Position numbers and translations under genes: made by a program
Assembly (NCBI RefSeq): GCF_000027125.1
Contig: NC_017626.1
Length of the DNA stretch: 64,000 nt
Origin: Escherichia coli 042
Lineage (GTDB): Bacteria > Pseudomonadota > Gammaproteobacteria > Enterobacterales > Enterobacteriaceae
Reading direction: 5' to 3' (one strand)
The notes under the pieces: model-generated
Seen by the model: only the letters and a program-made list of their open reading frames with translations
Told to the model about the DNA's origin: nothing
Database searches by the model: none
Part shown: piece after piece, positions 39,117-64,000 of the stretch
Position numbering within the stretch: the first letter of the stretch is position 1
Layout of the letters: each line of letters starts with the position of its first letter

Positions 39117-39818
39117 AAAAATGTTCCCGTTCAGGCCATGAGCACAGCATTTTCGTACTGCATAAAAATACCGAAGATACCGTTTCAGTGGCAGTTAGAT
39201 AATGTAACCTTCCTTCTGTTGTGATCGGTATTCTACTCATGAAATAAAATATTAAAAGAACTATTTATATTTTAGAAAGAGATGTATTCTTCCTTGCTAA
39301 TATATTATAGTGAAATAAATTTTGGTATTTATAGACTTGATGAATATGATTTTACGGTCAATAAAATGCCATAATATATTGATTTATATGTATTTATTAA
39401 ATTTATTAATAAGTTTTATGTATGGTTTTATCAATTGATTAATTGCTGGCAATACATCATAAGGAATTCCTTTAAGGAATGTCTTAATTGCGTGCTGGAA
39501 CGATGGCTGAGTAAGTGTCGTAATAATTTGTTTTTGACGCGGCTGTGGATTTTTATGGGGGGAAGGATACGTTATGGATAATTCTGCTGTTGAAGTTGAT
39601 ATATTTTTAGCTTATGTGACCGTGTTCTGAAATTGACTAAAAATATATTTAAACACCATAAAAGAGTTTTTCAGTAGGTGCTAATTACGTGTGCCTGTAA
39701 CTCGAATAAAGAAAAGGGTGTGGTTCCTGATGTGAGCCGCATCACACTCTAACCCGTCGGGGATTAACGACGGGTTGTTCGTAAAACAGCAGTTGATAAT
39801 TTCACAAGGAGTTCATAA

Positions 39819-40337
39819 ATGCCAACCCCATGTTACATTTCAATTACAGGTCAGACCCAGGGGAACATCACTGCCGGTGCTTTCACCGCAGATTCTGTCG
39901 GCAATATCTACGTGCAGGGACACGAAGATGAAATGCTGGTGCAGGAGTTTCTGCATAACGTTACTGTTCCAACCGATCCACAGTCTGGTCAACCTTCCGG
40001 GCAGCGCGCGCACAAACCGTTCATTTTCACCGTGGCGCTGAACAAAGCCGTTCCGCTGCTGTACAACGCGCTGGCCTCCGGTGAAATGCTGCCGAAAGTG
40101 GAGCTGCACTGGTGGCGTACTTCAGTTGAAGGCAAGCAGGAGCACTACTTCACCACACGTCTTACTGACGCGACGATTGTGGACATGAACCTGCACATGC
40201 CGCACTGCCAGGACCCTGCACAGCGTGAGTTTACGCAATTGCTCGCAGTATCACTGGCATACCGTAAGGTTGAGTGGGAGCACATCAAATCCGGTACTTC
40301 TGGTGCCGATGACTGGCGTGCACCGCTGGAAGCATAA
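39819..40337 (+). CDS. hcp: Type VI secretion tube protein Hcp (TssD), first gene of the divergent operon
   Basis: 172 aa starting MPTPCYISITGQTQGNITAGAF, recognised as Hcp1-family; AAGGAG ribosome-binding site upstream. Confidence 0.93.
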   Translation: MPTPCYISITGQTQGNITAGAFTADSVGNIYVQGHEDEMLVQEFLHNVTVPTDPQSGQPSGQRAHKPFIFTVALNKAVPLLYNALASGEMLPKVELHWWRTSVEGKQEHYFTTRLTDATIVDMNLHMPHCQDPAQREFTQLLAVSLAYRKVEWEHIKSGTSGADDWRAPLEA

Positions 40338-40346
40338 ATCTGAGTC

Positions 40347-40382
40347 AACAACATCCTGCCTTCGTGCAGGATGTTGTTTTTG
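40347..40382 (+). terminator. Rho-independent terminator/attenuator between hcp and vgrG
   Basis: Long perfect hairpin CAACAACATCCTGC..GCAGGATGTTGTTG followed by a T-run. Confidence 0.8.
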
Positions 40383-40557
40383 TACGTGTAAAAAATGAGT
40401 GTCAGTAAGGAGTTACGCTTTCATGAGGGAGATGGCGGATGCCGGAAACCCGGGCGGTAGCGTACCTGAAAATGTAAAGATGAGTGTAACGCTGCACTGG
40501 CACCCTTTGCTGCATGGTAAGAATCATTTGGTCCGTGAATAAATCAGGGAGGTCATT

Positions 40558-42516
40558 ATGTCCTTAAAAGGTCTGCGCTTTACGCTGGAGATTGACGGCC
40601 AGGAGCCGGACACCTTTGCAGTGGTGCATTTCAGGTTAATCCAGAACCAGTCTTATCCGTTTGTGATGAGTGTGGATGTTGCCAGCGACTCTTTTATGCA
40701 GACGGCGGAGATGCTGCTGGAGAAGAAGGCGACGCTGACCATCTGGCAGGGCGTCATCCCGCTGCGTTATGTCACCGGCGTGGTGGCGGGTTTTGGCATG
40801 CAGGAGAACAATGGCTGGCAGATGCGTTATCACCTGCGTATTGAGCCGCCGTTATGGCGGTGCGGGCTGCGGCAGAACTTCCGTATCTTCCAGCAGCAGG
40901 ATATCCGGACGATATCGGCCACGTTACTGAACGAGAACGGCGTCACGGAGTGGACACCGCTGTTTTATGAGGACCATCCGGCGCGGGAGTTCTGTGTCCA
41001 GTACGGGGAAAGCGACCTGGCGTTTCTGGCGCGGTTGTGGGCGGAGGAGGGAATTTTCTTCTTTGAGCGGTTTGCGGCGGACAGTCCGGAGCAGAAGCTG
41101 ACGCTGTGCGACGATGTGGCGGGGCTGTCACAGGCGGGAGAGCTTCCGTTTAACCCGGACACATCGGCAGGAGCGGAGACAGAGTGTGTCAGTATGTTCC
41201 GTTATGAGGCGTATGTCCGCCCGTCGTCGGTGCAGAGCCAGGATTACACGTTTAAGGTGCCGGACTGGCCGGGGATGTATGAGCAGCAGGGTGAGAACCT
41301 GAACGGACAGCTGGAGCAGTATGAGATATTTGATTATCCGGGAAGGTTCAAGGATGAACAGCACGGCAAGGATTTCACGCTGTACCAGATGGAGAGCCTG
41401 CGCAGTGATGCGGAAAAGGCCACAGGGCAGAGTAATTCACCGAAGCTGTGGCCGGGAACGCGGTTTACGCTGACGGGGCATCCGCAGAAGATGCTGAACC
41501 GTGAATGGCAGGTGGTACAGAGTATTCTGTCAGGGGACCAGCCGCAGGCGCTGCACGGCAGCCAGGGGAGAGGAACCACGCTGGGAAATCAGTTAGAGGT
41601 GATACCGGCGGACCGGACGTGGCGTCCACGGCTGCAAAGCAAACCGAAGGTGGACGGGCCACAGAGCGCCATTGTCACCGGTCCTGCGGGAGAGGAAATC
41701 TTCTGCGACGAACACGGACGTGTGCGAGTGCAGTTTCACTGGGACAGGTATAACCCGGCAACGGAGGCGAGTTCATGCTGGGTGAGGGTGTCGCAGGCGT
41801 GGGCGGGGCCGGGATTTGGTAACCTGGCGATACCGCGCATCGGCCAGGAAGTGATTGTAGACTTCCTGAACGGCGACCCGGACCAGCCGATAATCATGGG
41901 GCGGACGTACCATGAGGACAACCGTTCGCCGGGGAGTCTGCCGGGGACGAAGACGCAGATGACGATACGGTCGAAGACCTATAAAGGAAGCGGCTTTAAT
42001 GAACTGCGGTTCGAGGACGCGACGGACAAGGAAGAAATTTACCTGCACGCACAGAAAAATATGCAAGTCGTTGTGCTGAACAGCAAGGATAAGCGGGTCA
42101 ACTATGACCGGACGGTCAGCATCGGGCATGATGAATCCCTGGTGGTGGCAAATGACCGGAAAGTGACGGTTGAAGGTAAACAGGACCATAAAACCACCAA
42201 AGACCATGTCAGCCTGACAGAGGGCAATCAGGGGCTGGAGGTGAAAGGCGATCTGGCACAGAAAATAAGCGGCGCGCTGGGTATCAGCGTACAGGGCGAT
42301 ATTGTTTTACAGAGCGACAGCAAAATCAGTCTGCGGGTGGGCGGTTCATTTGTGGTGATCCATTCCGGCGGCGTGGATATTAAGGGCGCGAAAATCAATC
42401 TTAACGGCGGAGGCAGTCCGGGAGACGTGATCCTGCCGATGCGCCCGGTGATCCTGAAAGCCGCAGCCGGAAGCGGGACAATGTTTGTGGCGCACTGCCC
42501 GAAGGAGGATAAGTGA
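40558..42516 (+). CDS. vgrG: T6SS spike protein VgrG (TssI)
   Basis: 652 aa; gp27-like N-terminus, gp5-like OB fold and repeat region; no obvious C-terminal effector extension. Confidence 0.92.
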   Translation: MSLKGLRFTLEIDGQEPDTFAVVHFRLIQNQSYPFVMSVDVASDSFMQTAEMLLEKKATLTIWQGVIPLRYVTGVVAGFGMQENNGWQMRYHLRIEPPLWRCGLRQNFRIFQQQDIRTISATLLNENGVTEWTPLFYEDHPAREFCVQYGESDLAFLARLWAEEGIFFFERFAADSPEQKLTLCDDVAGLSQAGELPFNPDTSAGAETECVSMFRYEAYVRPSSVQSQDYTFKVPDWPGMYEQQGENLNGQLEQYEIFDYPGRFKDEQHGKDFTLYQMESLRSDAEKATGQSNSPKLWPGTRFTLTGHPQKMLNREWQVVQSILSGDQPQALHGSQGRGTTLGNQLEVIPADRTWRPRLQSKPKVDGPQSAIVTGPAGEEIFCDEHGRVRVQFHWDRYNPATEASSCWVRVSQAWAGPGFGNLAIPRIGQEVIVDFLNGDPDQPIIMGRTYHEDNRSPGSLPGTKTQMTIRSKTYKGSGFNELRFEDATDKEEIYLHAQKNMQVVVLNSKDKRVNYDRTVSIGHDESLVVANDRKVTVEGKQDHKTTKDHVSLTEGNQGLEVKGDLAQKISGALGISVQGDIVLQSDSKISLRVGGSFVVIHSGGVDIKGAKINLNGGGSPGDVILPMRPVILKAAAGSGTMFVAHCPKEDK

Positions 42517-43355
42517 TGGAAACGGCACCCGTGCAGTACGCCATTGTGGATGGCGCTGTGGAGGAAGGATTGCTGGATTTTCTGAACGAGGTGAATCCCC
42601 CGCACTGTTGTCTGTATGCAGAACCCATACAACTGGATCTGGTCGCGCTAGCCCCCTATCTCGTGGAAGTCGTTCCGGAGGTTGAAGCATGGCTGAGTGT
42701 TAAGGCGTCGCCATGGGGAATATATCTGACTTCTGAGTCATCCATGCGTGAGCTACAGCAACACTTCAGACGTTATCTGTGGGTTAGGATCCCCGAACAG
42801 GAGAAACCTGTTCTCATGCGATTTTATGATCCCCGGAATATATGGGTATTAGTGGAAGTTCTGACCCCCCGCCAGCGTCTTTCTTTTATCAGTCCCGTCA
42901 GACAGCTAAGTACCCGTTATGGTGAAGAATGTCGTGAGGATAATTTTTCTTCCGTCCGTCCCGCAGAAACTATGAATATAAGGGCAGAACGGCCATCACA
43001 ACTGACGCTGAGTTACAGACAATATAGCCAACTGGAACGAAAGGCACGGGATAATTATCTTGATATATTATCTGCATTTATCGAAGAAAATGTAGATAAA
43101 AACGGATGGGATGATTCATCAAAAGCTGAATCATCCCGAATTCTGGCAGAAGATTATTTCTCTTTTTGCCAGTCATTAAATATAGCAGATGATCGTTCCG
43201 TCAGAACAATGACGCTTATATTACTGAAAAAAAATATAATCGATCTCAGATATATTCCGGATGACTGGTATGAACAACTCAGCAATCAGTCATACCCGGG
43301 ACATATTCGGGTACATGAACTTGCACAACAGGAACTGGGATTTATCCCACAATAA
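42513..43355 (+). CDS. DUF4123-family T6SS effector adaptor/chaperone (Tap/Tec-like)
   Basis: 280 aa; N-terminal QYAIVDGAV motif characteristic of DUF4123; start overlaps the vgrG stop by 4 bp. Confidence 0.7.
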   Translation: MMETAPVQYAIVDGAVEEGLLDFLNEVNPPHCCLYAEPIQLDLVALAPYLVEVVPEVEAWLSVKASPWGIYLTSESSMRELQQHFRRYLWVRIPEQEKPVLMRFYDPRNIWVLVEVLTPRQRLSFISPVRQLSTRYGEECREDNFSSVRPAETMNIRAERPSQLTLSYRQYSQLERKARDNYLDILSAFIEENVDKNGWDDSSKAESSRILAEDYFSFCQSLNIADDRSVRTMTLILLKKNIIDLRYIPDDWYEQLSNQSYPGHIRVHELAQQELGFIPQ

Positions 43356-43376
43356 AAAGACAAACGGATAGATTAT

Positions 43377-44948
43377 ATGACATCTCCATCTTCGACAGCC
43401 GGAAAGCCCTGTGTGGAATGCGGCATTCCTGATCCATGTATTTTTGATGTTATTAGTGATTTTCCAGAGGCCGGCGAGAAACATTTCTGGTCAAAAGAAG
43501 GAGTGGCGCGTTTTAAGCTACTGGATGATGGTTCCGGATGTGATGGTATAATTACCATTACCTACCAGTGCGATAAAAGTGGAACACATGAGGCATGGTT
43601 AGAGGAAGAATCAGAAAATAATCATAAGATACTGCAACCTTTCGGAATACCTAATAAGGTCACTTTGGATGATAACTTGTCTGAAGGTGAAATAATTGCT
43701 ATGGGTACATTTCGAGTACCATGGGATTATTTGGGGGCAATATCCTCTCCACTTAAGAATCATTATGAACCTGCCCATTATTCAGTCAGAATTGACAGTT
43801 GTTACGAATGTGGCAATTATGTTGAAATTGATGTTTATCCTACAGTGGAAATTAGGTTTACTACAGGGTTCAGCTATGAGATTTCGTCATCAAAACAGAC
43901 GAGAACAGTAAAAGAGCGGCGTGACGAAAGAATAAAAGCCAGGGACGCAATGGAGAACACCAAGCCCAGGGATAAAAATAAACTCCGTAGCGGCTGGACA
44001 AATACCACTGCTGAGTTTGAGTGGATAAACAAGACTTCCCTGACTGTCGATTTTGGCGTAAAAATAGCTAATGTTGAACACACAAGTGAATATGAAAAAG
44101 AGATAAAAAAACTTCGACAAACAAAGCAACTGGAACAGATAGGAAGAATTGACTCTCTGGTCAAGAATGTCAATAAATATTTTGCGCCAGATCCTGACAA
44201 TAATAATGGTACGCGCAAATATGCATTGTTCAGTGCAAAAATAGAACCCGTTAAACTGGGTATATCGTATGCCTATCAATATACCGATATCCAGGATGGC
44301 CCCTGTCATTTTTATGGTTTGTTTGGTGCCCCATTTTTTGAAGCGTCGTTCAGATTCGATATTATTTCATTTATATGTGCATATTGTAAAGTCGAGTCAT
44401 TGGTCAACAGATGTCGTGAATATCTCCGTAAAAACGGAGCCAGTGTTGAATGCTATATCGAGATTTCAGCGGAGATTAATCTTGATCTTGGCGCAGTATA
44501 CGCTGAAAAGGATAAAAAATGGGAGTTTAATGTAAAGGAAAGTAACATCAAGCTCGGTTTAAAAGGTGTGGTGAGTGCGACGTTTGAGGCGAATGTTTTT
44601 GTTGTACAACTGACCGCCGAAGCGACTGCCTCTATAGAAGCGAAAGCTGGATTTGGATTTGATTCACATGATGACGGACTGGACCTAGCATTATTTCATG
44701 ACGGCATTAAAGGGAAGTTTGAATTTAAGATTGATGTGTCTCATGGTGAAGTTGATGAAAAAGGAAAGGGGAAGGAAAAGAGCGAAAAACCTGAGAAGAA
44801 AGATACCGTTGAGTGGCAGTTATGTGATCCTATGGAGGTAAAGGATTCACCATTACGGGTTAATTTATACGGTAAAGAACGCACTGTGGAGAAAAAAGTA
44901 ACACCGCCGAAGCCAGTGACAACGTGGACGATAGGTATGGATTATTAA
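43377..44948 (+). CDS. Hypothetical protein, candidate T6SS cargo effector of unknown activity
   Basis: 523 aa, no signal peptide, Cys-rich N-terminal third, Lys/Glu-rich C-terminal tail; directly downstream of vgrG and the DUF4123 adaptor. No recognisable catalytic motif seen by eye. Confidence 0.55.
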   Translation: MTSPSSTAGKPCVECGIPDPCIFDVISDFPEAGEKHFWSKEGVARFKLLDDGSGCDGIITITYQCDKSGTHEAWLEEESENNHKILQPFGIPNKVTLDDNLSEGEIIAMGTFRVPWDYLGAISSPLKNHYEPAHYSVRIDSCYECGNYVEIDVYPTVEIRFTTGFSYEISSSKQTRTVKERRDERIKARDAMENTKPRDKNKLRSGWTNTTAEFEWINKTSLTVDFGVKIANVEHTSEYEKEIKKLRQTKQLEQIGRIDSLVKNVNKYFAPDPDNNNGTRKYALFSAKIEPVKLGISYAYQYTDIQDGPCHFYGLFGAPFFEASFRFDIISFICAYCKVESLVNRCREYLRKNGASVECYIEISAEINLDLGAVYAEKDKKWEFNVKESNIKLGLKGVVSATFEANVFVVQLTAEATASIEAKAGFGFDSHDDGLDLALFHDGIKGKFEFKIDVSHGEVDEKGKGKEKSEKPEKKDTVEWQLCDPMEVKDSPLRVNLYGKERTVEKKVTPPKPVTTWTIGMDY

Positions 44949-45014
44949 GTGATATTACAGAAATTAAAAGTGAACAGTATAATGAGTATTTTCCCCTTTT
45001 GAGAGAGAATAATT

Positions 45015-46337: not shown

Positions 46338-47262
46338 ATGGAACATATTTCTGTTATTCCCGATTACAGACAAGCCTGGAAAGTGGAACATAAATTGTCG
46401 GATATTCTACTGTTGACTATTTGTGCCGTTATTTCGGGTGCAGAAGGTTGGGAAGATATAGAGGATTTTGGGGAAACACATCTCGATTTTTTAAAACAAT
46501 ACGGTGATTTTGAAAATGGTATTCCTGTTCACGATACCATCGCCAGAGTTGTATCCTGTATCAGTCCTGCAAAATTTCACGAGTGCTTTATTAACTGGAT
46601 GCGAGATTGCCATACTTCAGATGATAAAGACGTCATCGCAATTGATGGAAAAACGCTCCGGCACTCTTATGACAAGAGTCGCCGCAGGGGAGCGATTCAT
46701 GTCATTAGTGCGTTCTCAACAATGCACAGCCTGGTCATCGGACAGATCAAGACGGATGAGAAATCCAATGAGATTACAGCTATCCCAGAACTTCTTAACA
46801 TGCTGGATATTAAAGGAAAAATCATCACAACTGATGCGATGGGTTGCCAGAAAGATATTGCAGAGAAGATACAAAAACAGGGCGGTGATTATTTATTCGC
46901 TGTAAAAGGAAATCAGGGGCGGCTTAATAAAGCCTTTGAGGAAAAATTCCCACTGAAAGAATTAAATAATCCAGAGCATGACAGTTACGCAATGAGTGAA
47001 AAGAGTCACGGCAGAGAAGAAATCCGTCTTCATATTGTTTGCGATGTCCCTGATGAACTTATTGATTTCACGTTTGAATGGAAAGGACTGAAGAAATTAT
47101 GCGTGGCAGTCTCCTTTCGGTCCATAATAGCAGAACAAAAGAAAGAGCCAGAAATGACGGTCAGATATTATATCAGTTCTGCTGATTTAACCGCAGAGAA
47201 GTTCGCCACAGCAATCCGAAACCACTGGCACGTGGAGAATAAGCTGCACTGGCGTCTGGACG
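46338..47262 (+). CDS. ISAs1-family transposase (H-repeat-associated protein), exon 1 of intron-interrupted gene
   Basis: Matches the intact copy at 49523..50659 up to ...[14 protein letters not shown] 1 nt shorter A-run than in copy 2 removes the MELKKL leader, so the start shifts to the ATG at 46338. The ORF-track tail [10 protein letters not shown] is intron-encoded read-through. Confidence 0.75.
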
Positions 47263-49153
47263 GTGTGCCGCAGGAACACAAGATAGCTGCATAAGGATAC
47301 GCAGTTAGCTTTTGTATAAGCTCATAAAGAGATGGTGGAAGGCCCACCGGGATCGGCTGTCGGAAGCAGATTCCAAACCACTTCATGCTGCTGTGGTAAA
47401 GAGCCATGGTAGTGAGCGATGAAGTAAAGCGTGAGTGAAAACTCAGCAGGTAAGATACTCATGAGACGAGTGAACCCGAACCCATGTTGACGCGTCGTAA
47501 ACCAGAGACTGACATCAAAACCGAAGGGGCGTCCAGCCTTCGGGATAAGTCTGCGAGTGAATTCCGAATGCTGCGCAGACGGTGTCCGGCGTAAAGTGGG
47601 CGTGACGGAGTATCAGGCTCTTCCTGGGAACTGCGGGAACCTGTCGTTGTGATGATAAGGGAGAAATGCAAGTCACTGAATTGGCGAGCATGAAAGTACC
47701 GATGCACAGCACAGGGACGGAGCCGTTCGTAGTAGTGATGAAGCTTCTGTAATGGAGGTGGAGCGAAGGGGCGGCATCAGACAGTCTTTGGACAGTGTTC
47801 AACTGAACATGTTCAGGAGGAGACAATGACAAAGACAAAAGCGTTTAACATTGATAAGTCACTGGTGGTCAGCGCGTACAGGCGAGTGAAGACCAGTGCA
47901 GGCGCGGCGGGAATTGATAAGCAATCGCTGGCGGACTTTGATAAACGGTTAGTTGATAATCTGTACAAAATCTGGAACCGACTTTCTTCAGGAAGTTATT
48001 TCCCACCGGCAGTGAAAGCGGTGGCAATTCCGAAGAAATTGGGTGGAGAGAGAATTCTGGGTATCCCGACAGTCAGCGATCGTATCGCGCAGACGGTGGT
48101 AAAACTGGCCTTTGAGCCACAGGTTGAGCCACATTTTCTGGCAGACTCTTACGGCTACAGACCGAATAAATCGGCACTGGATGCTATAGGGGTAACGCGT
48201 AAGCGTTGCTGGTATTACGACTGGGTACTGGAATTTGACATCAAAGGGCTGTTCGATAACATCCCGCACGAACTGATAATGAAAGCCGTGGACAAACACA
48301 ATCCGGCCCGGTGGGTAAAATTGTATATACAGCGGTGGCTGACAGCGCCGATGGTGATGTCAGACGGAGAAGTCAGAGCACGAACAATGGGAACGCCGCA
48401 GGGAGGTGTCATAAGTCCGTTGCTGGCAAACCTGTTCATGCATTATGTGTTTGATAAATGGCTGGCAAAATATTATCCGAAAGTGCCGTGGTATCGATAT
48501 GCTGATGATGGCATTTTGCATTGTCACAGCGAAGCAGAAGCGACTGAAATGCGAGAAGTATTACGCAAAAGATTTAGCGAATGCGGACTGGAAATGCATC
48601 CGGAGAAAACGCGAGTTATCTACTGCAAAGATGGAAGCCGGAAGGGTGATTATGAACATACCATGTTCGACTTTCTGGGGTACACATTCAGGCGACGCGT
48701 AGTAAAGAACGTTAAGCGAAACAGTCTGTTTGTAAGTTTTACCCCCGCAGCGAGCAAATCAGCGCTAAAGGCAATGCGTCGGGAAATCAAAGCGACAGGG
48801 ATAAGGAAAAGAGTGGATTTAAGCATTGAGCAGATAGCGAAATGGATAAATCCAAAACTGAATGGCTGGATAAATTATTACGGGCGATATACCTGTTCGG
48901 AATTATACAGCGTGTTCAGATATATCAATAAAGCACTGGTGAGGTGGGGGCGTAAGAAATATAAAATGCTCAGCCGATACAAGACAAGAGCCTCAAAATT
49001 TCTGGAAGAAATGGCGAAGCGAAGTCCACAGTTGTTTGCCCACTGGCGTCTGAAGATGAGAGGCGGACTTGTTTGATGGGAGCGGTATGAGCCGAGAGGT
49101 TCACGTACCGTTCTGCGAGAGGCTGCGGGGGAGGTTCCTGCGGCCTACTCACC
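47263..49153 (+). mobile_element. Group II intron (about 1.9 kb) inserted in the transposase gene
   Basis: Insert begins GTGTG (GUGYG consensus), contains the RT/maturase ORF in the position of domain IV, has a domain V-like hairpin (GAGCGGTATGAGCCGAGAGGTTCACGTACCGTTC, about 49080..49114) and ends just before the exon 2 sequence seen in the intact copy. Boundaries are good to about 1 nt. Confidence 0.8.
47826..49076 (+). CDS. Group II intron-encoded reverse transcriptase/maturase
   Basis: 416 aa; RT motifs including YADD ([11 protein letters not shown]) and a C-terminal maturase (domain X) region. Confidence 0.88.
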
Positions 49154-49347
49154 TGGTAATGAATGAAGACGACTGCAAAATAAGAAGAGGAAATGCAGCA
49201 GAATTATTTTCAGGGATACGGCACATCGCTATTAATATTTTGACGAATGATAAGGTATTCAAGGCAGGGTTAAGACGTAAGATGCGAAAAGCAGCCATGG
49301 ACAGAAACTATCTGGCGTCAGTCCTTGCGGGGTGCGGGCTTTCGTAA
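49154..49347 (+). CDS. ISAs1-family transposase, exon 2 (C-terminal 64 codons)
   Basis: Encodes [63 protein letters not shown], nearly identical to the C-terminus of the intact copy; joins exon 1 in frame. Confidence 0.75.
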
Positions 49348-58519: not shown

Positions 58520-58810
58520 ACTGCTTATTCCTTGATAAAACGGTTACACACGCCAGGACGGCAAAATGGATCCCAAATCGGAATAGTCTGGATTTGGAAG
58601 GCTCACATTATCACCAAAAGAGTTTTACGCAAGCCTGTCGGCGCAGGGTTTACAAATTTAGCACAGGGGCAGTTTTCATTAGTCCGAAAAGCGCATGTAT
58701 CATTTATTTCCTAAGATTATGAAACCTCAATAGTAATATGCAAATAAGCAATTAATAATCCCGTTTACTCCTCCGGTCTTTTAAAATTCTCCCCTTCATT
58801 CAGCCGGTTT

Positions 58811-59569
58811 ATGTCCTTCATGTCTTCGTTCTTTCACGGCAGATTTCTGCATCCAGGCGTGTTTTCGTTATGCGTTTTGCTCCCTTTACTCGCCAGCGCC
58901 ACCACATCACATATCTCTTTCAGCTACGCCGCCCGCCAGCGGATGCAAAACCGTGCGCGTTTATTAAAACAGTACCAAACCCATCTGAAAAAACAGGCCA
59001 GCTATATTGTGGAAGGCAATGCCGAAAGCAGAAAGGCGCTGCGCCAGCACAACCGCGAACAGATAAAACAGCATCCAGAATGGTTTCCTGCGCCGCTCAA
59101 GGCGAGTGACAGACGCTGGCAGGCGCTGGCGGAGAACAACCATTTCTTAAGCAGCGACCATCTGCACAACATCACCGAAGTGGCGATTCACCGCCTGGAG
59201 CAGCAGCTTGGTAAGCCTTACGTCTGGGGCGGCACGCGGCCCGATCAAGGCTTCGACTGTAGCGGGTTGGTTTTTTATGCCTACAACAAGATCCTCGAGG
59301 CGAAGCTCCCGCGCACGGCCAATGAGATGTATCACTACCATCGGGCAACGATTGTGGCGAATAACGACCTGCGCCGGGGAGATTTGCTGTTTTTCCATAT
59401 TCACAGCCGTGAGATTGCCGATCATATGGGCGTGTATCTGGGAGACGGTCAGTTTATCGAGTCGCCGCGCACCGGGGAAACCATTCGGGTAAGTCGGTTA
59501 GCTGAACCTTTCTGGCAGGATCATTTTTTAGGCGCGCGCAGGATTTTGACGGAAGAGACGATTTTGTAG
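58811..59569 (+). CDS. yafL: NlpC/P60-family peptidase lipoprotein YafL
   Basis: 252 aa; NlpC/P60 catalytic region (DCSGLVFYAY with catalytic Cys, downstream His). Confidence 0.88.
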   Translation: MSFMSSFFHGRFLHPGVFSLCVLLPLLASATTSHISFSYAARQRMQNRARLLKQYQTHLKKQASYIVEGNAESRKALRQHNREQIKQHPEWFPAPLKASDRRWQALAENNHFLSSDHLHNITEVAIHRLEQQLGKPYVWGGTRPDQGFDCSGLVFYAYNKILEAKLPRTANEMYHYHRATIVANNDLRRGDLLFFHIHSREIADHMGVYLGDGQFIESPRTGETIRVSRLAEPFWQDHFLGARRILTEETIL

Positions 59570-59650
59570 GACGGATAAGGCGTTCACGCCGCATCCGGCA
59601 ATAGTGCACCGATGCCTGATGCGACGCTGCCGCGTCTTATCATGCCTACG
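59570..59650. repeat. REP pair (BIME) downstream of yafL
   Basis: GGACGGATAAGGCGTTCACGCCGCATCCGGCA and GATGCCTGATGCGACGCTGCCGCGTCTTATCATGCCTAC. Confidence 0.85.
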
Positions 59651-59745
59651 AGTCTGCGAATTTTTTGCGAGCTGCTTTCCCGATATAACACAACTTCATT
59701 GTCGACTTTTCCTTTTCTTCTTATCGTTGAGAAAAAGGAGTCGCC

Positions 59746-60243
59746 ATGTCTGAATATCGTCGTTATTACATCAAGGGGGGAACATGGTTTTTCACGGTAC
59801 ATTTACGGAATCGTCGAAGCCAACTTTTGACCACCCAGTACCAGACACTCCGTAACGCCATTATTAAAGTTAAGCAGGCCAGACCTTTTGAAATTAACGC
59901 CTGGGTAGTTTTGCCAGAGCATATGCACTGTATCTGGACATTACCCGAAAGTGATGATGATTTTTCCTCTCGCTGGCGGGAGATTAAAAAGCAGTTCACC
60001 CATGCTTGCGGATTGAAAAATATCTGGCAACCGCGTTTTTGGGAGCATGCCATTCGCAATACAAAAGATTATCGCCATCATGTTGATTATATTTATATAA
60101 ATCCAGTGAAACATGGCTGGGTAAAGCAGGTGAGTGATTGGCCATTCTCAACGTTCCATCGCGATGTAGCGCGAGGGTTATATCCCATTGATTGGGCGGG
60201 AGACATAACGGATTTTAGTGCCGGGGAGCGTATTATTTTATAA
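59746..60243 (+). CDS. rayT: REP-associated tyrosine transposase RayT (YafM; HUH Y1 transposase)
   Basis: 165 aa with HUH motif (HMHCIW) and C-terminal catalytic Tyr region; flanked on both sides by REP sequences. Confidence 0.9.
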   Translation: MSEYRRYYIKGGTWFFTVHLRNRRSQLLTTQYQTLRNAIIKVKQARPFEINAWVVLPEHMHCIWTLPESDDDFSSRWREIKKQFTHACGLKNIWQPRFWEHAIRNTKDYRHHVDYIYINPVKHGWVKQVSDWPFSTFHRDVARGLYPIDWAGDITDFSAGERIIL

Positions 60244-60665
60244 TTGTGCGCGGATGCCTGATGCGACGCAGGCGCGTCTTATCATGCCTACAAACTTGTG
60301 CCGGATCGGTGGGCCGGATAAGGCGTTCACACCGCATCCGGCAATTGTGCACCGGTGCCTGATGCGACGCTGGCGCGTCTTATCATGCCTACAAACCTGT
60401 GCCGGATCGGTGGGCCGGATAAGGCGTTCACACCGCATCCGGTAATTGTGCACCGGTGCCTGATGCGACGCTGGCGCGTCTTATCATGCCTACAAACCTG
60501 TGCCGGATCGGTGGGCTGGATAAGGCGTTCACACCGCATCCGGCAATTGTGCGCAGATGCCTGATGCGACGCTGACGCGTCTTATCATGCCTACAAACTT
60601 GTGCCGGATCGGTAGGCCGGATAAGGCGTTCACGCCGCATCCGGCAATTGTGCACCGATGCCGGA
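60244..60665. repeat. Tandem REP/BIME array of about four 101 bp units downstream of rayT
   Basis: TGCCTGATGCGACGC recurs at about 60255, 60357, 60458 and 60559 (101 to 102 bp period); each unit holds two REP palindromes in opposite orientation. Confidence 0.88.
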
Positions 60666-60681: not shown

Positions 60682-62775
60682 TCAACTCAACGCCCCCATA
60701 ATCTTCAACTCCAGCTCATCCGGCACTTCGTTATACGACAGCACATGCAGACCCGGCGCAAACAACCTTGCATAACGCGCCAGCAAAGGACGCAGCTGCG
60801 GCGGCACCAGCAGCACAGGGGCTTTCCCCGCTGCTTTCATCTGCTCCTTCACCTGCGGCATCGTACTCTGGAACTGGTTGAGCATATTCGGGTCAACCGG
60901 CACGCTGTCGAGCATCACTTTGCCGGCCTGTTGCGCCTGATTCACCACATTGGTCAGCAGATTTTCCAGCTCATTATTCAGCGTATACACCGTCAGCTCC
61001 TGTTTGCGAACGAACGGATGGGTAATGCTGCGCCGCAGCGCCAGGCGCACATCGGCCGCCAGCAGAATATGATCTTTGGTCAATGTGCTACTGGCGACCA
61101 GCACAGTGGCGATGGTGACGATATCGCGCAGGGAAACGCCTTCGGTCAGTAATGCACGGTACACTTTCAGCAACTGGCTGTAATTGAGCGCTGCGCTCAA
61201 ATCTTCCGCCAGTCGCGGTGCCATCGACGACAAACGATTATGCAACTGCGTAATATCGTCATAGTTAAATAAATCAGGAATATAGCTGCGCACAATCTTA
61301 TTCACATGGGTGGCAATCACGCTGGCGCTGTCGATCACCTGATACCCCATATTCAGCGCCTTCGCTTTCTGCGCGGGCTGGATCCAGGTCACCGGCATCC
61401 CGTACGCCGGGTCGTTCCCCAGCACGCCGTCAATCTCGCCGTAGGTTTCGCTGGAGGGCAGGGCCATCAGTTTATCCGCCGGAATATCCGCTTCATCAGC
61501 CTTAATGCCATTGATGAAAATGGCGTACTGGCTGGGCTTGAGGCGGAAGTTTTCCCGAATACGGATCTCCGGCAGCAGCACGCCGTTGCCGTCGGAAATC
61601 ACCTGCCGCACGCCGCGAATCCGCTGGGTGAGCGGGTTACCTTGGGCTTTATCGACTAGCGCCACCAGCTTGTAGCCGAGGCTTAAGCTGATGGGCTCGA
61701 TCAGCGGAATGGTTTCCCAACTGACCTGTTGCTCGCTGGTTTCGGTGATGGTTCGGGTCAGCGTTTCGAGGCTTTTCTCCTCCGCCTCCGCCGCCTGCGG
61801 GCGTTTGCTCATCCGCCAGCCGGTAAAGCCAAGCAGGGCGCTGAACAGCAAAAATGGCAGATGCGGCATCCCCGGCACCACCGCCAGCACAAACATGATC
61901 CCGGTGGCGGTGTAGAGCACCGACGGGCTTGCCAGCAGCTGGTGGCGCACGTCATGGGCGATATCGCCGTTGTCGCTGACGCGGGTGACGATAATTGCCG
62001 CTGCGGTGGAGAGCAGCAGGGACGGGATCTGCGCCACCAGCCCGTCGCCGATGGTCATCAGCACATACTGCTGGAAGGCGGCGTCGGCGCTCAGGTTGTA
62101 TTTGAAGATGCCGATACAGACGCCGCCGATCAGGTTGATCGCCAGAATCATCATCCCGGCGATGGCGTCCCCGCGCACAAACTTCGATGCCCCGTCCATC
62201 GCGCCGTAGAAATCGGCCTCGCTGGCAACATCTTTACGCCGGGTTTGCGCCTGCGCCTGGTTGATCAACCCAGCGTTAAGATCGGCGTCAATCGCCATCT
62301 GTTTACCGGGCATCGCGTCTAAGGTAAAGCGGGCAGAAACCTCGGAAATACGCTCGGCCCCTTTGGTGACGACGATAAAGTTGATGATCATCAGGATGAT
62401 AAACACCACAAAGCCGACGACAAAGTTGCCGCCAATCACCACCTGACCAAATGACTCAATTACCTTACCCGCCGCGCCCGCGCCGAGATGCCCGTGCAGC
62501 AACACCACGCGCGTAGAAGCAACGTTGAGCGTCAGGCGCATTAAGGTGGTGATCAGCAAAATGGTCGGGAACAGGCTGAATTCCAGCGGCCTTTTCGCTG
62601 ACACCGCCACCAGCAGTACCATCACCGCCAGCACAATGTTGAAGGTGAACAGAATATCCAGCAGCGCAGGCGGCAGCGGCAAAATAACCATCGCCAGAAT
62701 ACACAGGATCACCAGCGGCACGCCGAGATTGCCGCCGCGCAGTAGCGCGAGGAACGATTTAGTTGTTTTCGCCAT
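60682..62775 (-). CDS. lfhA: Flagellar type III export apparatus protein FlhA paralog (Flag-2 locus)
   Basis: 697 aa full-length FlhA-family protein (N-terminal transmembrane domain, FHIPEP region, cytoplasmic C-terminal domain); located next to rayT where the Flag-2 cluster begins. Confidence 0.85.
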   Translation of the reverse strand: MAKTTKSFLALLRGGNLGVPLVILCILAMVILPLPPALLDILFTFNIVLAVMVLLVAVSAKRPLEFSLFPTILLITTLMRLTLNVASTRVVLLHGHLGAGAAGKVIESFGQVVIGGNFVVGFVVFIILMIINFIVVTKGAERISEVSARFTLDAMPGKQMAIDADLNAGLINQAQAQTRRKDVASEADFYGAMDGASKFVRGDAIAGMMILAINLIGGVCIGIFKYNLSADAAFQQYVLMTIGDGLVAQIPSLLLSTAAAIIVTRVSDNGDIAHDVRHQLLASPSVLYTATGIMFVLAVVPGMPHLPFLLFSALLGFTGWRMSKRPQAAEAEEKSLETLTRTITETSEQQVSWETIPLIEPISLSLGYKLVALVDKAQGNPLTQRIRGVRQVISDGNGVLLPEIRIRENFRLKPSQYAIFINGIKADEADIPADKLMALPSSETYGEIDGVLGNDPAYGMPVTWIQPAQKAKALNMGYQVIDSASVIATHVNKIVRSYIPDLFNYDDITQLHNRLSSMAPRLAEDLSAALNYSQLLKVYRALLTEGVSLRDIVTIATVLVASSTLTKDHILLAADVRLALRRSITHPFVRKQELTVYTLNNELENLLTNVVNQAQQAGKVMLDSVPVDPNMLNQFQSTMPQVKEQMKAAGKAPVLLVPPQLRPLLARYARLFAPGLHVLSYNEVPDELELKIMGALS

Positions 62776-63898
62776 CCAGTTTAAGCACCTCTTTGGGAAT
62801 GGAAATATGTCTGTTCAGGGCCGGGCGCGGCTGTGCACCATCGCGCCAGTGTTTCATTTGCAGGACGTAGGTCAGAACGTGGGCGATAGCCCGGTAAAGC
62901 TGAAAAGGAATTTGCTGATTCACCTGAGTGGTGTAGTAAACCGAGCGCGCCAGCCGCGGGAACTCGACCACTTCCACCTGACTTTCAGCAGCGACCTGGC
63001 GAATATAGAGGGCGATTTCATCGGTGCCTTTCGCCACCACAAACGGCGCGGCGGCACGCGACTGGTCATACTGCAACGCCACGGCGTAGTGGGTCGGGTT
63101 GGTGATCACCACGTTGGCCTTTGGCACCACTTTGCGAATTTGCCCCATCGCCAGTTGCCGTTGCAGCCGCCGCACGCGCGCCTTCACTTCCGGCTTGCCT
63201 TCCTGATTTTTGTACTCTTCTTTCAGTTTTTGTTTGGTCATCTTCAGCCCTTTGGTGAACAGGGCTTTCGCCAGCGGCACGTCGAGAAGCGCAAAGAAAA
63301 TAAACAGGATGACAAAGTTGCGCATCACGCTGGCGTAGAGCGACAAACCGTCATTCATCGCCAGTTTGAACGGCAGCGCCTGCAGGCCGAGAAAGGCGGC
63401 AAAGTTATTGCGCAGGCTTACCCACAGCATCACCAGCACCACGGCAGACTTCACCGTCATCTTTCCCGTTTCCGCCAGATGTTCACTGGAAAACAGCCGC
63501 CTAATCCCTTTTAACGGACTGATTTTGCTGAAATCCGGGAGGATTTTTTTCGGCAGAAACAGCCAGCCGCCGGGCACCAGTGAGGAGAGCAGCGCGGCGG
63601 CGGGCATTGGCAGCAAGGTAAGAATAAACTTGCCGAGAATTAACAGGTGATGGCGCAGAAACTGGCCGATAGCGTCCGGGTTATTAATCTCCTGCGCGTA
63701 CTGATGCACGCTGATAAAACTCTCGCGCACAAAATCGGCATACCACGGGAAGCTGCTGGAGATCACCACAAACGCCGCAAACAGGCTCGCCGCCAGCCCC
63801 ATATCCTTCGAGCGCGGCAGTTGCCCCTCTTCACGCGCTTTACGCAGCTTTTGCGCCGAGGGTTTCTCTGTTTTTTCTTCGCTGCTGCTATCCGCCAT
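62759..63898 (-). CDS. lfhB: Flagellar export apparatus protein FlhB paralog (Flag-2 locus)
   Basis: 379 aa FlhB-family protein with NPTH autocleavage motif (VITNPTHYAVAL); overlaps lfhA by 17 bp. Confidence 0.85.
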   Translation of the reverse strand: MADSSSEEKTEKPSAQKLRKAREEGQLPRSKDMGLAASLFAAFVVISSSFPWYADFVRESFISVHQYAQEINNPDAIGQFLRHHLLILGKFILTLLPMPAAALLSSLVPGGWLFLPKKILPDFSKISPLKGIRRLFSSEHLAETGKMTVKSAVVLVMLWVSLRNNFAAFLGLQALPFKLAMNDGLSLYASVMRNFVILFIFFALLDVPLAKALFTKGLKMTKQKLKEEYKNQEGKPEVKARVRRLQRQLAMGQIRKVVPKANVVITNPTHYAVALQYDQSRAAAPFVVAKGTDEIALYIRQVAAESQVEVVEFPRLARSVYYTTQVNQQIPFQLYRAIAHVLTYVLQMKHWRDGAQPRPALNRHISIPKEVLKLDGENN

Positions 63899-64000
63899 AG
63901 TGACCTTTCAGCGCGTCGAGTTGTTGCAGGACAAAATTCGCCAGATGCAGATAGTGATCCGGCAGGTTGTAAAGCAGGGTGGCAAAGCAGACCAGCCCCA
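63888..64000 (-). CDS. lfiR: C-terminal end of the upstream export-apparatus gene, probably a FliR paralog (partial, start beyond window end)
   Basis: Open frame ...GLVCFATLLYNLPDHYLHLANFVLQQLDALKGHYGG ending in TAG and overlapping the lfhB start by 11 bp; assignment rests on synteny only. Confidence 0.45.
   Translation of the reverse strand, partial: GLVCFATLLYNLPDHYLHLANFVLQQLDALKGHYGG

What the first reader, a model, noticed from the sequence alone, without database searches (positions are those of the whole stretch)
60682..64000. Full-length flhA and flhB paralogs next to rayT: an intact start of the Flag-2 lateral flagellar locus
A 697 aa FlhA and a 379 aa FlhB with an intact NPTH autocleavage site lie immediately after the rayT REP array, followed by the tail of a probable FliR paralog. 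In E. coli K-12 this position holds only a truncated lfhA remnant next to lafU. The strain may therefore carry a second, complete flagellar gene system far from the primary flagellar regions.
Basis: partly seen in the sequence, partly recalled or inferred. Interest (0 to 1): 0.5.

Follow-up and report, generated by a model that had tools for sequence, protein, structure and literature searches.

The report
Known E. coli Flag-2 flagellar genes

Summary
Window 60682-62775 (-) encodes a 697-aa FlhA-family protein. Window 62759-63898 (-) encodes a 379-aa FlhB-family protein with an intact NPTH site. Window 63888-64000 (-) is the 3' end of a fliR paralog. All lie 38 nt past a 4 x 101-nt REP array that follows rayT.

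These are not the primary flhBA genes: they are 44.5% and 36.2% identical to K-12 FlhA and FlhB. The FlhA groups with lateral-flagellar FlhA: 890 bits to V. parahaemolyticus lateral FlhA (PDB 7AMY) against 578 bits to the best primary-type FlhA chain.

This is the Flag-2 locus (lfhA, lfhB, lfiR) described by Ren et al. 2005. The part that K-12 lacks is present in 1290 of 5426 complete E. coli genomes (24%). The two nearest genomes, A10 and CB6837, match the last 24 kb of the window at about 99.97% or better. Both carry the whole cluster from rayT to dinB as well as the primary flagellar regions. Completeness in this particular strain cannot be read from the window, and Flag-2 flagella have never been shown to be expressed in E. 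coli.

Novelty: already known.

Side observation: the K-12-type deletion has one identical junction, whose left end is at window 62385|62386. It occurs on diverged allelic backgrounds and in E. albertii, yet the gene remnants are undecayed. I did not resolve this.

The parts
59566..59656 (.). REP/BIME copy upstream of rayT
   Evidence: Reference copy of repeat family D2; the downstream copies are 87-90% identical to it.
59746..60243 (+). rayT (yafM), REP-associated tyrosine transposase; left neighbour of the locus
   Evidence: NF047646, 176.4 bits against a cut-off of 80. Annotated rayT in A10 and K-12.
60241..60644 (.). Tandem array of four 101-nt REP/BIME units between the convergent genes rayT and lfhA
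   Evidence: the repeat finder families D1 and D2, spacing 101 nt. The K-12 rayT-lfhA spacer is only 223 nt.
60682..62775 (-). lfhA: Flag-2 FlhA paralog, 697 aa, export-gate subunit
   Evidence: FHIPEP full length; TIGR01398 772.8 bits. 44.5% identical to K-12 FlhA. 889.8 bits to lateral FlhA 7AMY against 577.8 bits to the best primary-type chain. R142, R149, D153, K198, D203, D244, R390, D455 and T489 are conserved. dN/dS 0.027 against the YZMc3-1 allele.
62385..62386 (.). Left endpoint of the K-12-type 36.1-kb Flag-2 deletion (between lfhA codons 130 and 131)
   Evidence: K-12 and ECA64 alignments stop at 62385 and resume in lafU; junction is GTTGAT|TGTCAAC. 4086 of 5426 genomes span a 120-nt query centred on this junction.
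62759..63898 (-). lfhB: Flag-2 FlhB paralog, 379 aa, with NPTH at 63089-63100
   Evidence: Bac_export_2 full length. Best NCBIfam model is FlhB, 338.2 bits, below its cut-off of 349.25. 36.2% identical to K-12 FlhB. dN/dS 0.077. Carries a private E224K change.
63888..64000 (-). 3' end of lfiR (fliR paralog), last 36 codons plus stop, overlapping the lfhB start by 11 nt
   Evidence: Translation. Annotated fliR in A10 at the corresponding coordinates.

Best explanation
The region is the left end of the E. coli Flag-2 (lateral-type) flagellar gene cluster. It holds lfhA and lfhB, the last two genes of the lfiMNPQR-lfhBA unit, which is transcribed towards rayT, plus the end of lfiR. By homology, LfhA would form the nonameric export-gate ring. 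That ring uses proton-motive force and docks chaperone-substrate complexes. LfhB would sit on the FliPQR-type core and cleave itself between N267 and P268, which allows the switch from hook-type to filament-type substrates. Shown here: gene identity, intactness, paralogy to the primary genes, affinity to lateral-flagellar FlhA, and purifying selection. Inferred: that the rest of the cluster follows in this strain, as it does in its two nearest sequenced relatives, and that the proteins work as their homologs do. Not shown: that the system is ever expressed.
For: ORFs and NPTH site. Pfam and NCBIfam assignments. 44.5% and 36.2% identity to K-12 FlhA and FlhB. The closest solved structure is FlhA of V. 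parahaemolyticus lateral flagella, 7AMY, 889.8 bits, against 577.8 bits for the best primary-type FlhA chain (PMC8213127). Reciprocal pattern in Aeromonas caviae: the paralog in an lfiM..lfhBA-lafK-lfiEF context is 58.5% identical to LfhA and 47.4% to K-12 FlhA, while the other paralog is 47.1% and 57.3%. Functional residues are conserved. dN/dS is 0.027 (lfhA) and 0.077 (lfhB) at dS of about 0.16. Complete clusters from rayT to dinB without pseudogene flags in A10; CB6837 likewise except flgL, which is flagged partial. Separate primary flhBAE, fliE-R and fliA/C/D in A10. 1290 of 5426 complete genomes hold the segment that K-12 lacks, in line with 24 of 100 strains in PMC6993521.
Against: The window ends 113 nt into lfiR, so the state of about 35 kb of the cluster in this strain is unknown. 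LfhB scores below the TIGR00328 trusted cut-off. LfhB also carries K at position 224, where five other LfhB/FlhB sequences have E or D. No sigma-54-type promoter with one mismatch or fewer was found upstream of the lfiM unit in A10. In E. coli EC958 no LafA was detected and lafA played no part in motility (PMC4637896). Strain 042 has a frameshift in lfgC (PMC3032704).
Confidence: 0.9

Rival explanations
1. The genes are present and intact, but the Flag-2 system of this strain is cryptic. Either it is broken further downstream or it is never expressed, so these two genes do nothing at present.
For: Published tests in E. coli found no Flag-2 expression or function: EC958 (PMC4637896); 042 has an lfgC frameshift and W and Crooks lack motY and maf-5 (PMC3032704). 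CB6837 has flgL flagged as partial. This strain has a private E224K change in LfhB. About 75% of E. coli genomes have lost the locus.
Against: dN/dS of 0.03-0.08 across alleles about 4% apart indicates long-term selection for function. A10 shows no pseudogene flags between rayT and dinB, although PGAP flags many frameshifts elsewhere in that assembly.
Confidence: 0.45
2. These are the primary flhB-flhA genes moved next to rayT by a genome rearrangement.
For: NCBIfam and PGAP simply name them FlhA and FlhB.
Against: They are only 44.5% and 36.2% identical to K-12 FlhA and FlhB, while the flanking housekeeping DNA is 97.9% identical to K-12. There is no flhE or che neighbour; lfiR follows instead. 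The near-identical genome A10 has a separate flhBAE next to cheZ and argS.
Confidence: 0.01
3. They belong to a non-flagellar type III secretion system (injectisome SctV/SctU, for example ETT2).
For: SctV and SctU models also match: 579.6 and 272.5 bits.
Against: The FlhA and FlhB models score higher: 772.8 and 338.2 bits. In A10 all downstream neighbours are flagellar: fliRQP, fliMN-like, fliE-J, flgA-N, lafA, fliD, fliS, motA, lafU.
Confidence: 0.01

Closest known systems
Flag-2 locus of enteroaggregative E. coli 042 (Ren, Beatson, Parkhill and Pallen, J Bacteriol 2005; surveyed across Enterobacterales in PMC6993521)
   Same: Same chromosomal position: rayT side on the left and, in relatives A10 and CB6837, lafU-dinB on the right. 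Same gene order lfhA-lfhB-lfiR. In those relatives the same three gene clusters are present, plus the RelE/ParE-type toxin-antitoxin pair that the literature reports for 042.
   Different: The nearest relatives have an intact lfgC, whereas 042 is reported to be frameshifted. The 042 record was not in the searchable collection and the 2005 paper is not held, so no direct sequence comparison with 042 was made.
Lateral flagellar export gate of Vibrio parahaemolyticus and Aeromonas (FlhA of lateral flagella, PDB 7AMY)
   Same: The closest solved structure by a wide margin (889.8 bits, aligned over residues 14-696). In A. caviae the closer paralog sits in the same lfiM..lfhBA arrangement.
   Different: Different genera. 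In A. caviae lafK follows lfhA in the same direction; in E. coli it lies divergent from lfiM. The Vibrio and Aeromonas systems are experimentally active, whereas the E. coli one is not known to be (PMC3032704).
Primary (Flag-1) flhBAE operon of E. coli K-12
   Same: Same protein families and same domain lengths. NPTH site and the key FlhA charged residues are conserved.
   Different: 44.5% and 36.2% identity. No flhE. Different neighbours and a locus about 1.7 Mb away in K-12 coordinates.
lfhA (fhiA) and lafU (mbhA) pseudogene scar of E. coli K-12
   Same: The 3' 1704 nt of the window's lfhA are the counterpart of the K-12 remnant (95.2% identical; 82 of 1704 differences). Both lie next to rayT.
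   Different: K-12 lacks lfhA codons 1-130 and everything up to lafU codon 53, about 36.1 kb.

Membership tests
FlhA (flagellar FHIPEP / SctV family) | Full-length FHIPEP domain | tested here: met
   PF00771 covers residues 26-688 against model positions 1-656 of 657, E 2e-242.
FlhA (flagellar FHIPEP / SctV family) | Scores as flagellar FlhA rather than injectisome SctV, and at or above the curated cut-off | tested here: met
   TIGR01398 772.8 bits against a cut-off of 772.1 (only just above); SctV model 579.6 bits against a cut-off of 692.
FlhA (flagellar FHIPEP / SctV family) | Conserved charged residues of the transmembrane and loop region, and the chaperone-binding dimple (R147, R154, D158, K203, D208, D456, F459, T490 in Salmonella numbering; the residue list is from my own knowledge) | tested here: met
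   All are conserved except F459, which is Y458 (conservative), and V404, which is E403 in all Flag-2 alleles compared.
FlhB (flagellar SctU family) | Bac_export_2 domain with the NPTH autocleavage motif | tested here: met
   PF01312 covers residues 7-345. NPTH at residues 267-270.
FlhB (flagellar SctU family) | Reaches the curated equivalog cut-off of TIGR00328 | tested here: not met
   338.2 bits against a cut-off of 349.25. FlhB is still the best-scoring model; SctU scores 272.5. The protein is a divergent FlhB paralog, as expected for Flag-2.
Flag-2 locus (Ren et al. 2005) | Position next to rayT (yafM) with gene order lfhA-lfhB-lfiR | tested here: met
Flag-2 locus (Ren et al. 2005) | Proteins closer to lateral-flagellar homologs than to the primary system | tested here: met
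   7AMY 889.8 bits against 577.8 bits. Reciprocal identities in A. caviae.
Flag-2 locus (Ren et al. 2005) | Full set of three gene clusters (lfh/lfi, lfg, laf) ending at lafU-dinB | not testable with these tools
   The window ends inside lfiR. The feature is met in the nearest genomes A10 and CB6837.
Flag-2 locus (Ren et al. 2005) | Produces a working second flagellar system | not testable with these tools
   This needs experiments. Published E. coli tests were negative (PMC4637896, PMC3032704).

The most novel reading that the evidence does not exclude
The identical 36.1-kb lfhA|lafU deletion, whose left end lies inside this finding at 62385|62386, may not be one ancient accident. It could arise repeatedly by a site-directed mechanism. 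The alternative is a single old presence/absence polymorphism whose flanks recombine so freely with intact alleles that the so-called pseudogenes never decay. Supporting observations: the same junction, with only GAT microhomology, is spanned by 4086 of 5426 E. coli genomes and is present in the E. albertii type strain. The K-12 remnant is 0 of 1704 nt different from the intact lfhA of strain 1303. ECA64 differs from A10 essentially only by the deletion. Nine remnants have no stop codon or indel and a pairwise dN/dS of about 0.04. The left site holds the palindrome TGATGATCATCA, and the right site lies in the 9-nt spacer of GACGCTGT-N9-ACAGCGTC. The probability below is for the recurrent, site-directed reading.
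Probability: 0.25. Interest if true: 0.55.

Novelty: already known. Interest (0 to 1): 0.17.

Why it matters
As a gene finding it adds little. Flag-2 was described in 2005, has been surveyed across Enterobacterales, and is present in about a quarter of E. coli. It does identify this strain as one that keeps the locus, in a lineage whose close relatives are split between keeping it (A10, CB6837) and losing it (ECA64, 2021CK-01784). That split makes the lineage a natural pair for asking what Flag-2 costs or provides. The undecayed remnants and the single shared junction also bear on how large presence/absence polymorphisms are maintained in E. coli.

Tried and rejected
- **Primary operon hypothesis:** rejected.
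- **Injectisome hypothesis:** rejected.
- **Sigma-54 promoter for the lfiM-lfhA unit:** no match with one mismatch or fewer in the lafK-lfiM spacer of A10. That spacer holds a REP element instead. The total number of matches in the locus (4) is no more than chance (4.8).
- **Ren et al. 2005 (PMC545627):** not held, so what that paper says about the scar is known to me only through later papers and memory.
- **E. coli 042 (NC_017626.1):** not in the genome collection.
- **Genome-contig scan:** it was swamped by a universal FlhA motif (DAMPGKQM). Only four useful loci came back: two Citrobacter (both with intact loci), E. albertii, and Aeromonas. The lfhA-lafU deletions reported in Citrobacter could therefore not be examined.
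- **Ancient deletion with neutrally decaying remnants:** rejected. There are no stops or indels in 9 of 9 E. coli remnants and dN/dS is about 0.04.
- **Recent sweep of one deletion haplotype:** rejected. Diversity among deletion alleles equals that among intact alleles right up to the junction, and no site separates the two classes.
- **ECA64 deletion imported on a foreign tract:** no support. The only nearby change, a T six bases before the junction, is private to ECA64.
- **Intact twin for every remnant type:** not found. The best intact match to the O157:H7-type remnant is 96.1%.
Full report
**Observation**

The ORF list shows 60682..62775 (-) at 697 aa and 62759..63898 (-) at 379 aa, overlapping by 17 nt.
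- The 379-aa protein has NPTH at residues 267-270. On the + strand, 63089-63100 reads GTGGGTCGGGTT, the reverse complement of AAC CCG ACC CAC.
- The - strand of 63888-64000 gives 36 codons and a stop. The gene annotated fliR in E. coli A10 ends at the corresponding position.
- rayT is at 59746-60243 (+).
- Between its stop and the lfhA stop lie four tandem 101-nt REP/BIME units (60241-60644). A fifth copy sits at 59566-59656.

**What the proteins are**

- The 697-aa protein is a full-length FHIPEP protein (PF00771, E 2e-242). It scores 772.8 bits on the FlhA equivalog TIGR01398 (cut-off 772.1) against 579.6 bits on the injectisome SctV model.
- The 379-aa protein is a full-length Bac_export_2 protein (PF01312). 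Its best model is FlhB (338.2 bits), slightly below that model's cut-off of 349.25. SctU scores 272.5.
- They are 44.5% and 36.2% identical to K-12 FlhA and FlhB, whereas the flanking housekeeping DNA is 97.9% identical to K-12. They are therefore old paralogs, not a relocated primary operon.
- The closest solved structure is 7AMY (889.8 bits). [quoted passage not shown] The best primary-type FlhA chain scores 577.8 bits.
- Aeromonas caviae holds two paralogs. One sits in an lfiM..lfhB-lfhA-lafK-lfiE-lfiF context and is 58.5% identical to the window protein and 47.4% to K-12 FlhA. The other is 47.1% and 57.3%.
- The FlhA residues I know to be required in Salmonella (R147, R154, D158, K203, D208, D456, T490, and R391) are all conserved; F459 is Y.
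- Against a 4%-diverged intact allele (YZMc3-1), dN/dS is 0.027 for lfhA and 0.077 for lfhB at dS of about 0.16. Both genes have therefore been under strong purifying selection.

**Context and completeness**

The window is E. coli. Its last 24 kb match E. coli A10 (wood-wren, Mexico) and CB6837 at about 99.97% or better. A10 differs at 8 of 24,501 positions.

In A10 the genes that follow the window are, in order:
- fliR, fliQ, fliP, fliN-like and fliM-like;
- a divergent sigma-54 activator followed by fliE-J;
- a cytidylyltransferase, a glycosyltransferase and a hypothetical protein whose CB6837 counterpart is annotated lysine-N-methylase;
- flgN, flgM, flgA and flgB-L;
- a RelE/ParE toxin-antitoxin pair and a regulator;
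- lafA, fliD, fliS, fliK, fliL, a FliA-like sigma factor, motA and lafU, then dinB.

None of these carries a pseudogene flag. CB6837 is the same except that flgL is flagged partial. A10 also has flhDC-motAB-che-flhBAE, fliE-R and fliA/C/D at the usual places, so it has two separate systems.

This matches the published Flag-2 layout, lfhAB-lfiRQPNM-lafK-lfiEFGHIJ followed by the lfg and laf clusters (PMC6993521). K-12 has only the lfhA and lafU pseudogenes between rayT and dinB.

The 1.6 kb of the window that K-12 lacks is present in 1290 of 5426 complete E. coli genomes. The retained 3' part of lfhA is present in 5383. This agrees with 24 of 100 strains in PMC6993521.

The window itself excludes the K-12 scar, but it cannot show the remaining 35 kb or so.

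**Function**

By homology, LfhA and LfhB are the FlhA and FlhB subunits of a second flagellar export gate.

Whether the system is used is open.
- Strain 042 has an lfgC frameshift (PMC3032704).
- In ST131 strain EC958, LafA was not detected and lafA did not contribute to motility (PMC4637896).
- The window's LfhB has K224 where A10, CB6837, YZMc3-1, 1303 and Citrobacter have E and primary FlhB has D.
- No complete genome matches 62386-64000 perfectly.

**Comparison with what is known**

This is the Flag-2 locus, already described and surveyed. The finding is correct and ordinary.

**Side observation, partly followed up**

The left end of the K-12-type deletion is inside the finding, at 62385|62386.

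The deletion and its distribution:
- It removes about 36.1 kb and joins ...GATAAAGTTGAT to TGTCAACAGCG... in lafU codon 53. Only GAT is shared at the two ends.
- A 120-nt query centred on the junction is spanned by 4086 of 5426 genomes. That is 98.8% of the genomes that lack the deleted segment.
- Nine remnants from seven lineages, 4-6.5% apart, all have this junction. So does the E. albertii type strain, whose remnant is 92.6% identical and carries a 22-nt gap.

The E. coli remnants are not decayed:
- There are no stop codons and no indels in 567 lfhA codons or in 233 lafU codons.
- Pairwise dN/dS has a median of 0.04, against 0.021 among intact alleles.
- No site separates deleted from intact alleles.
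- Diversity within each class equals divergence between the classes at every distance from the junction.

Close pairs of deleted and intact alleles:
- The K-12 remnant is 0 of 1704 nt different from the intact lfhA of strain 1303, with 2 of 4000 differences upstream. To the right of the junction the two differ at 69 of 2939 positions, starting 66 nt from the junction.
- ECA64 matches A10 on both sides and differs essentially by the deletion alone.
- The O157:H7-type remnant has no intact twin; the best match is 96.1%.

Three readings remain:
- (a) Recurrent site-directed deletion. The left site holds the palindrome TGATGATCATCA, and the right site lies in the spacer of GACGCTGT-N9-ACAGCGTC.
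- (b) One old deletion whose flanks recombine freely with intact alleles, so that selection acting on intact copies keeps the shared pool clean. The literature already marks this region as recombination-prone in ST131 (PMC4637896).
- (c) Selection on the remnants themselves.

I favour (b) but could not exclude (a).

Noticed in passing
window 62385-62386 (also L003, L008, L011-L017, L026, L103, L104): The K-12-type Flag-2 deletion has one identical junction (GTTGAT|TGTCAAC, only GAT shared). A junction query is spanned by 4086 of 5426 E. coli genomes, and the junction is also in the E. albertii type strain. It sits on allelic backgrounds 4-6.5% apart. The lfhA and lafU remnants have no stops or indels and dN/dS of about 0.04. 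The K-12 remnant is 0 of 1704 nt different from the intact lfhA of strain 1303. Whether this is recurrent precise deletion or a single origin with free flank recombination is unresolved.
   Followed up: partly
window 63229 (lfhB codon 224): LfhB of this strain has K224 in the motif MTKQ-E-LKEE. Five other LfhB sequences have E at this position and primary FlhB has D. No complete E. coli genome matches 62386-64000 at 100%.
   Followed up: partly
window 58659-58892: The dinJ-yafQ toxin-antitoxin pair that K-12, YZMc3-1 and 1303 carry between dpaA (yafK) and yafL is absent here: 232 nt instead of 839 nt. It is also absent in A10, CB6837 and ECA64.
   Followed up: no
window 60241-60644 and 59566-59656: The REP/BIME array after rayT is expanded to four tandem 101-nt units, where the whole K-12 spacer is 223 nt. 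One more copy lies upstream of rayT. The array sits between two convergent genes and may act as their terminator or stabiliser.
   Followed up: partly
window about 18001-39116 and 39800-45000: By the A10 annotation, a complete type VI secretion cluster (tssB-tssM, two hcp genes) lies next to a tRNA-Asp gene. It is followed by hcp, a truncated vgrG, a DUF4123 gene and putative effector genes.
   Followed up: no
window about 46338-49347: By the A10 annotation, an ISAs1-family transposase gene is split by a group II intron carrying ltrA, with a further ISEc1 copy and ISAs1 fragments beside it.
   Followed up: no
L001 40084-40098 and 27575-27665 (E. coli A10, beyond the window): A perfect sigma-54 -24/-12 match (TGGCACAGCGATTGC) lies 38 nt upstream of lfgB. 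No comparable site precedes the lfiM-lfhA unit, whose upstream spacer contains a REP element.
   Followed up: partly
L006 (E. coli A10, primary flagellar region): The primary-system fliT is flagged frameshifted in A10, and an IS1397 (IS3-like) element lies between fliC and fliA. Many other A10 genes are also flagged frameshifted, so assembly error is possible.
   Followed up: no
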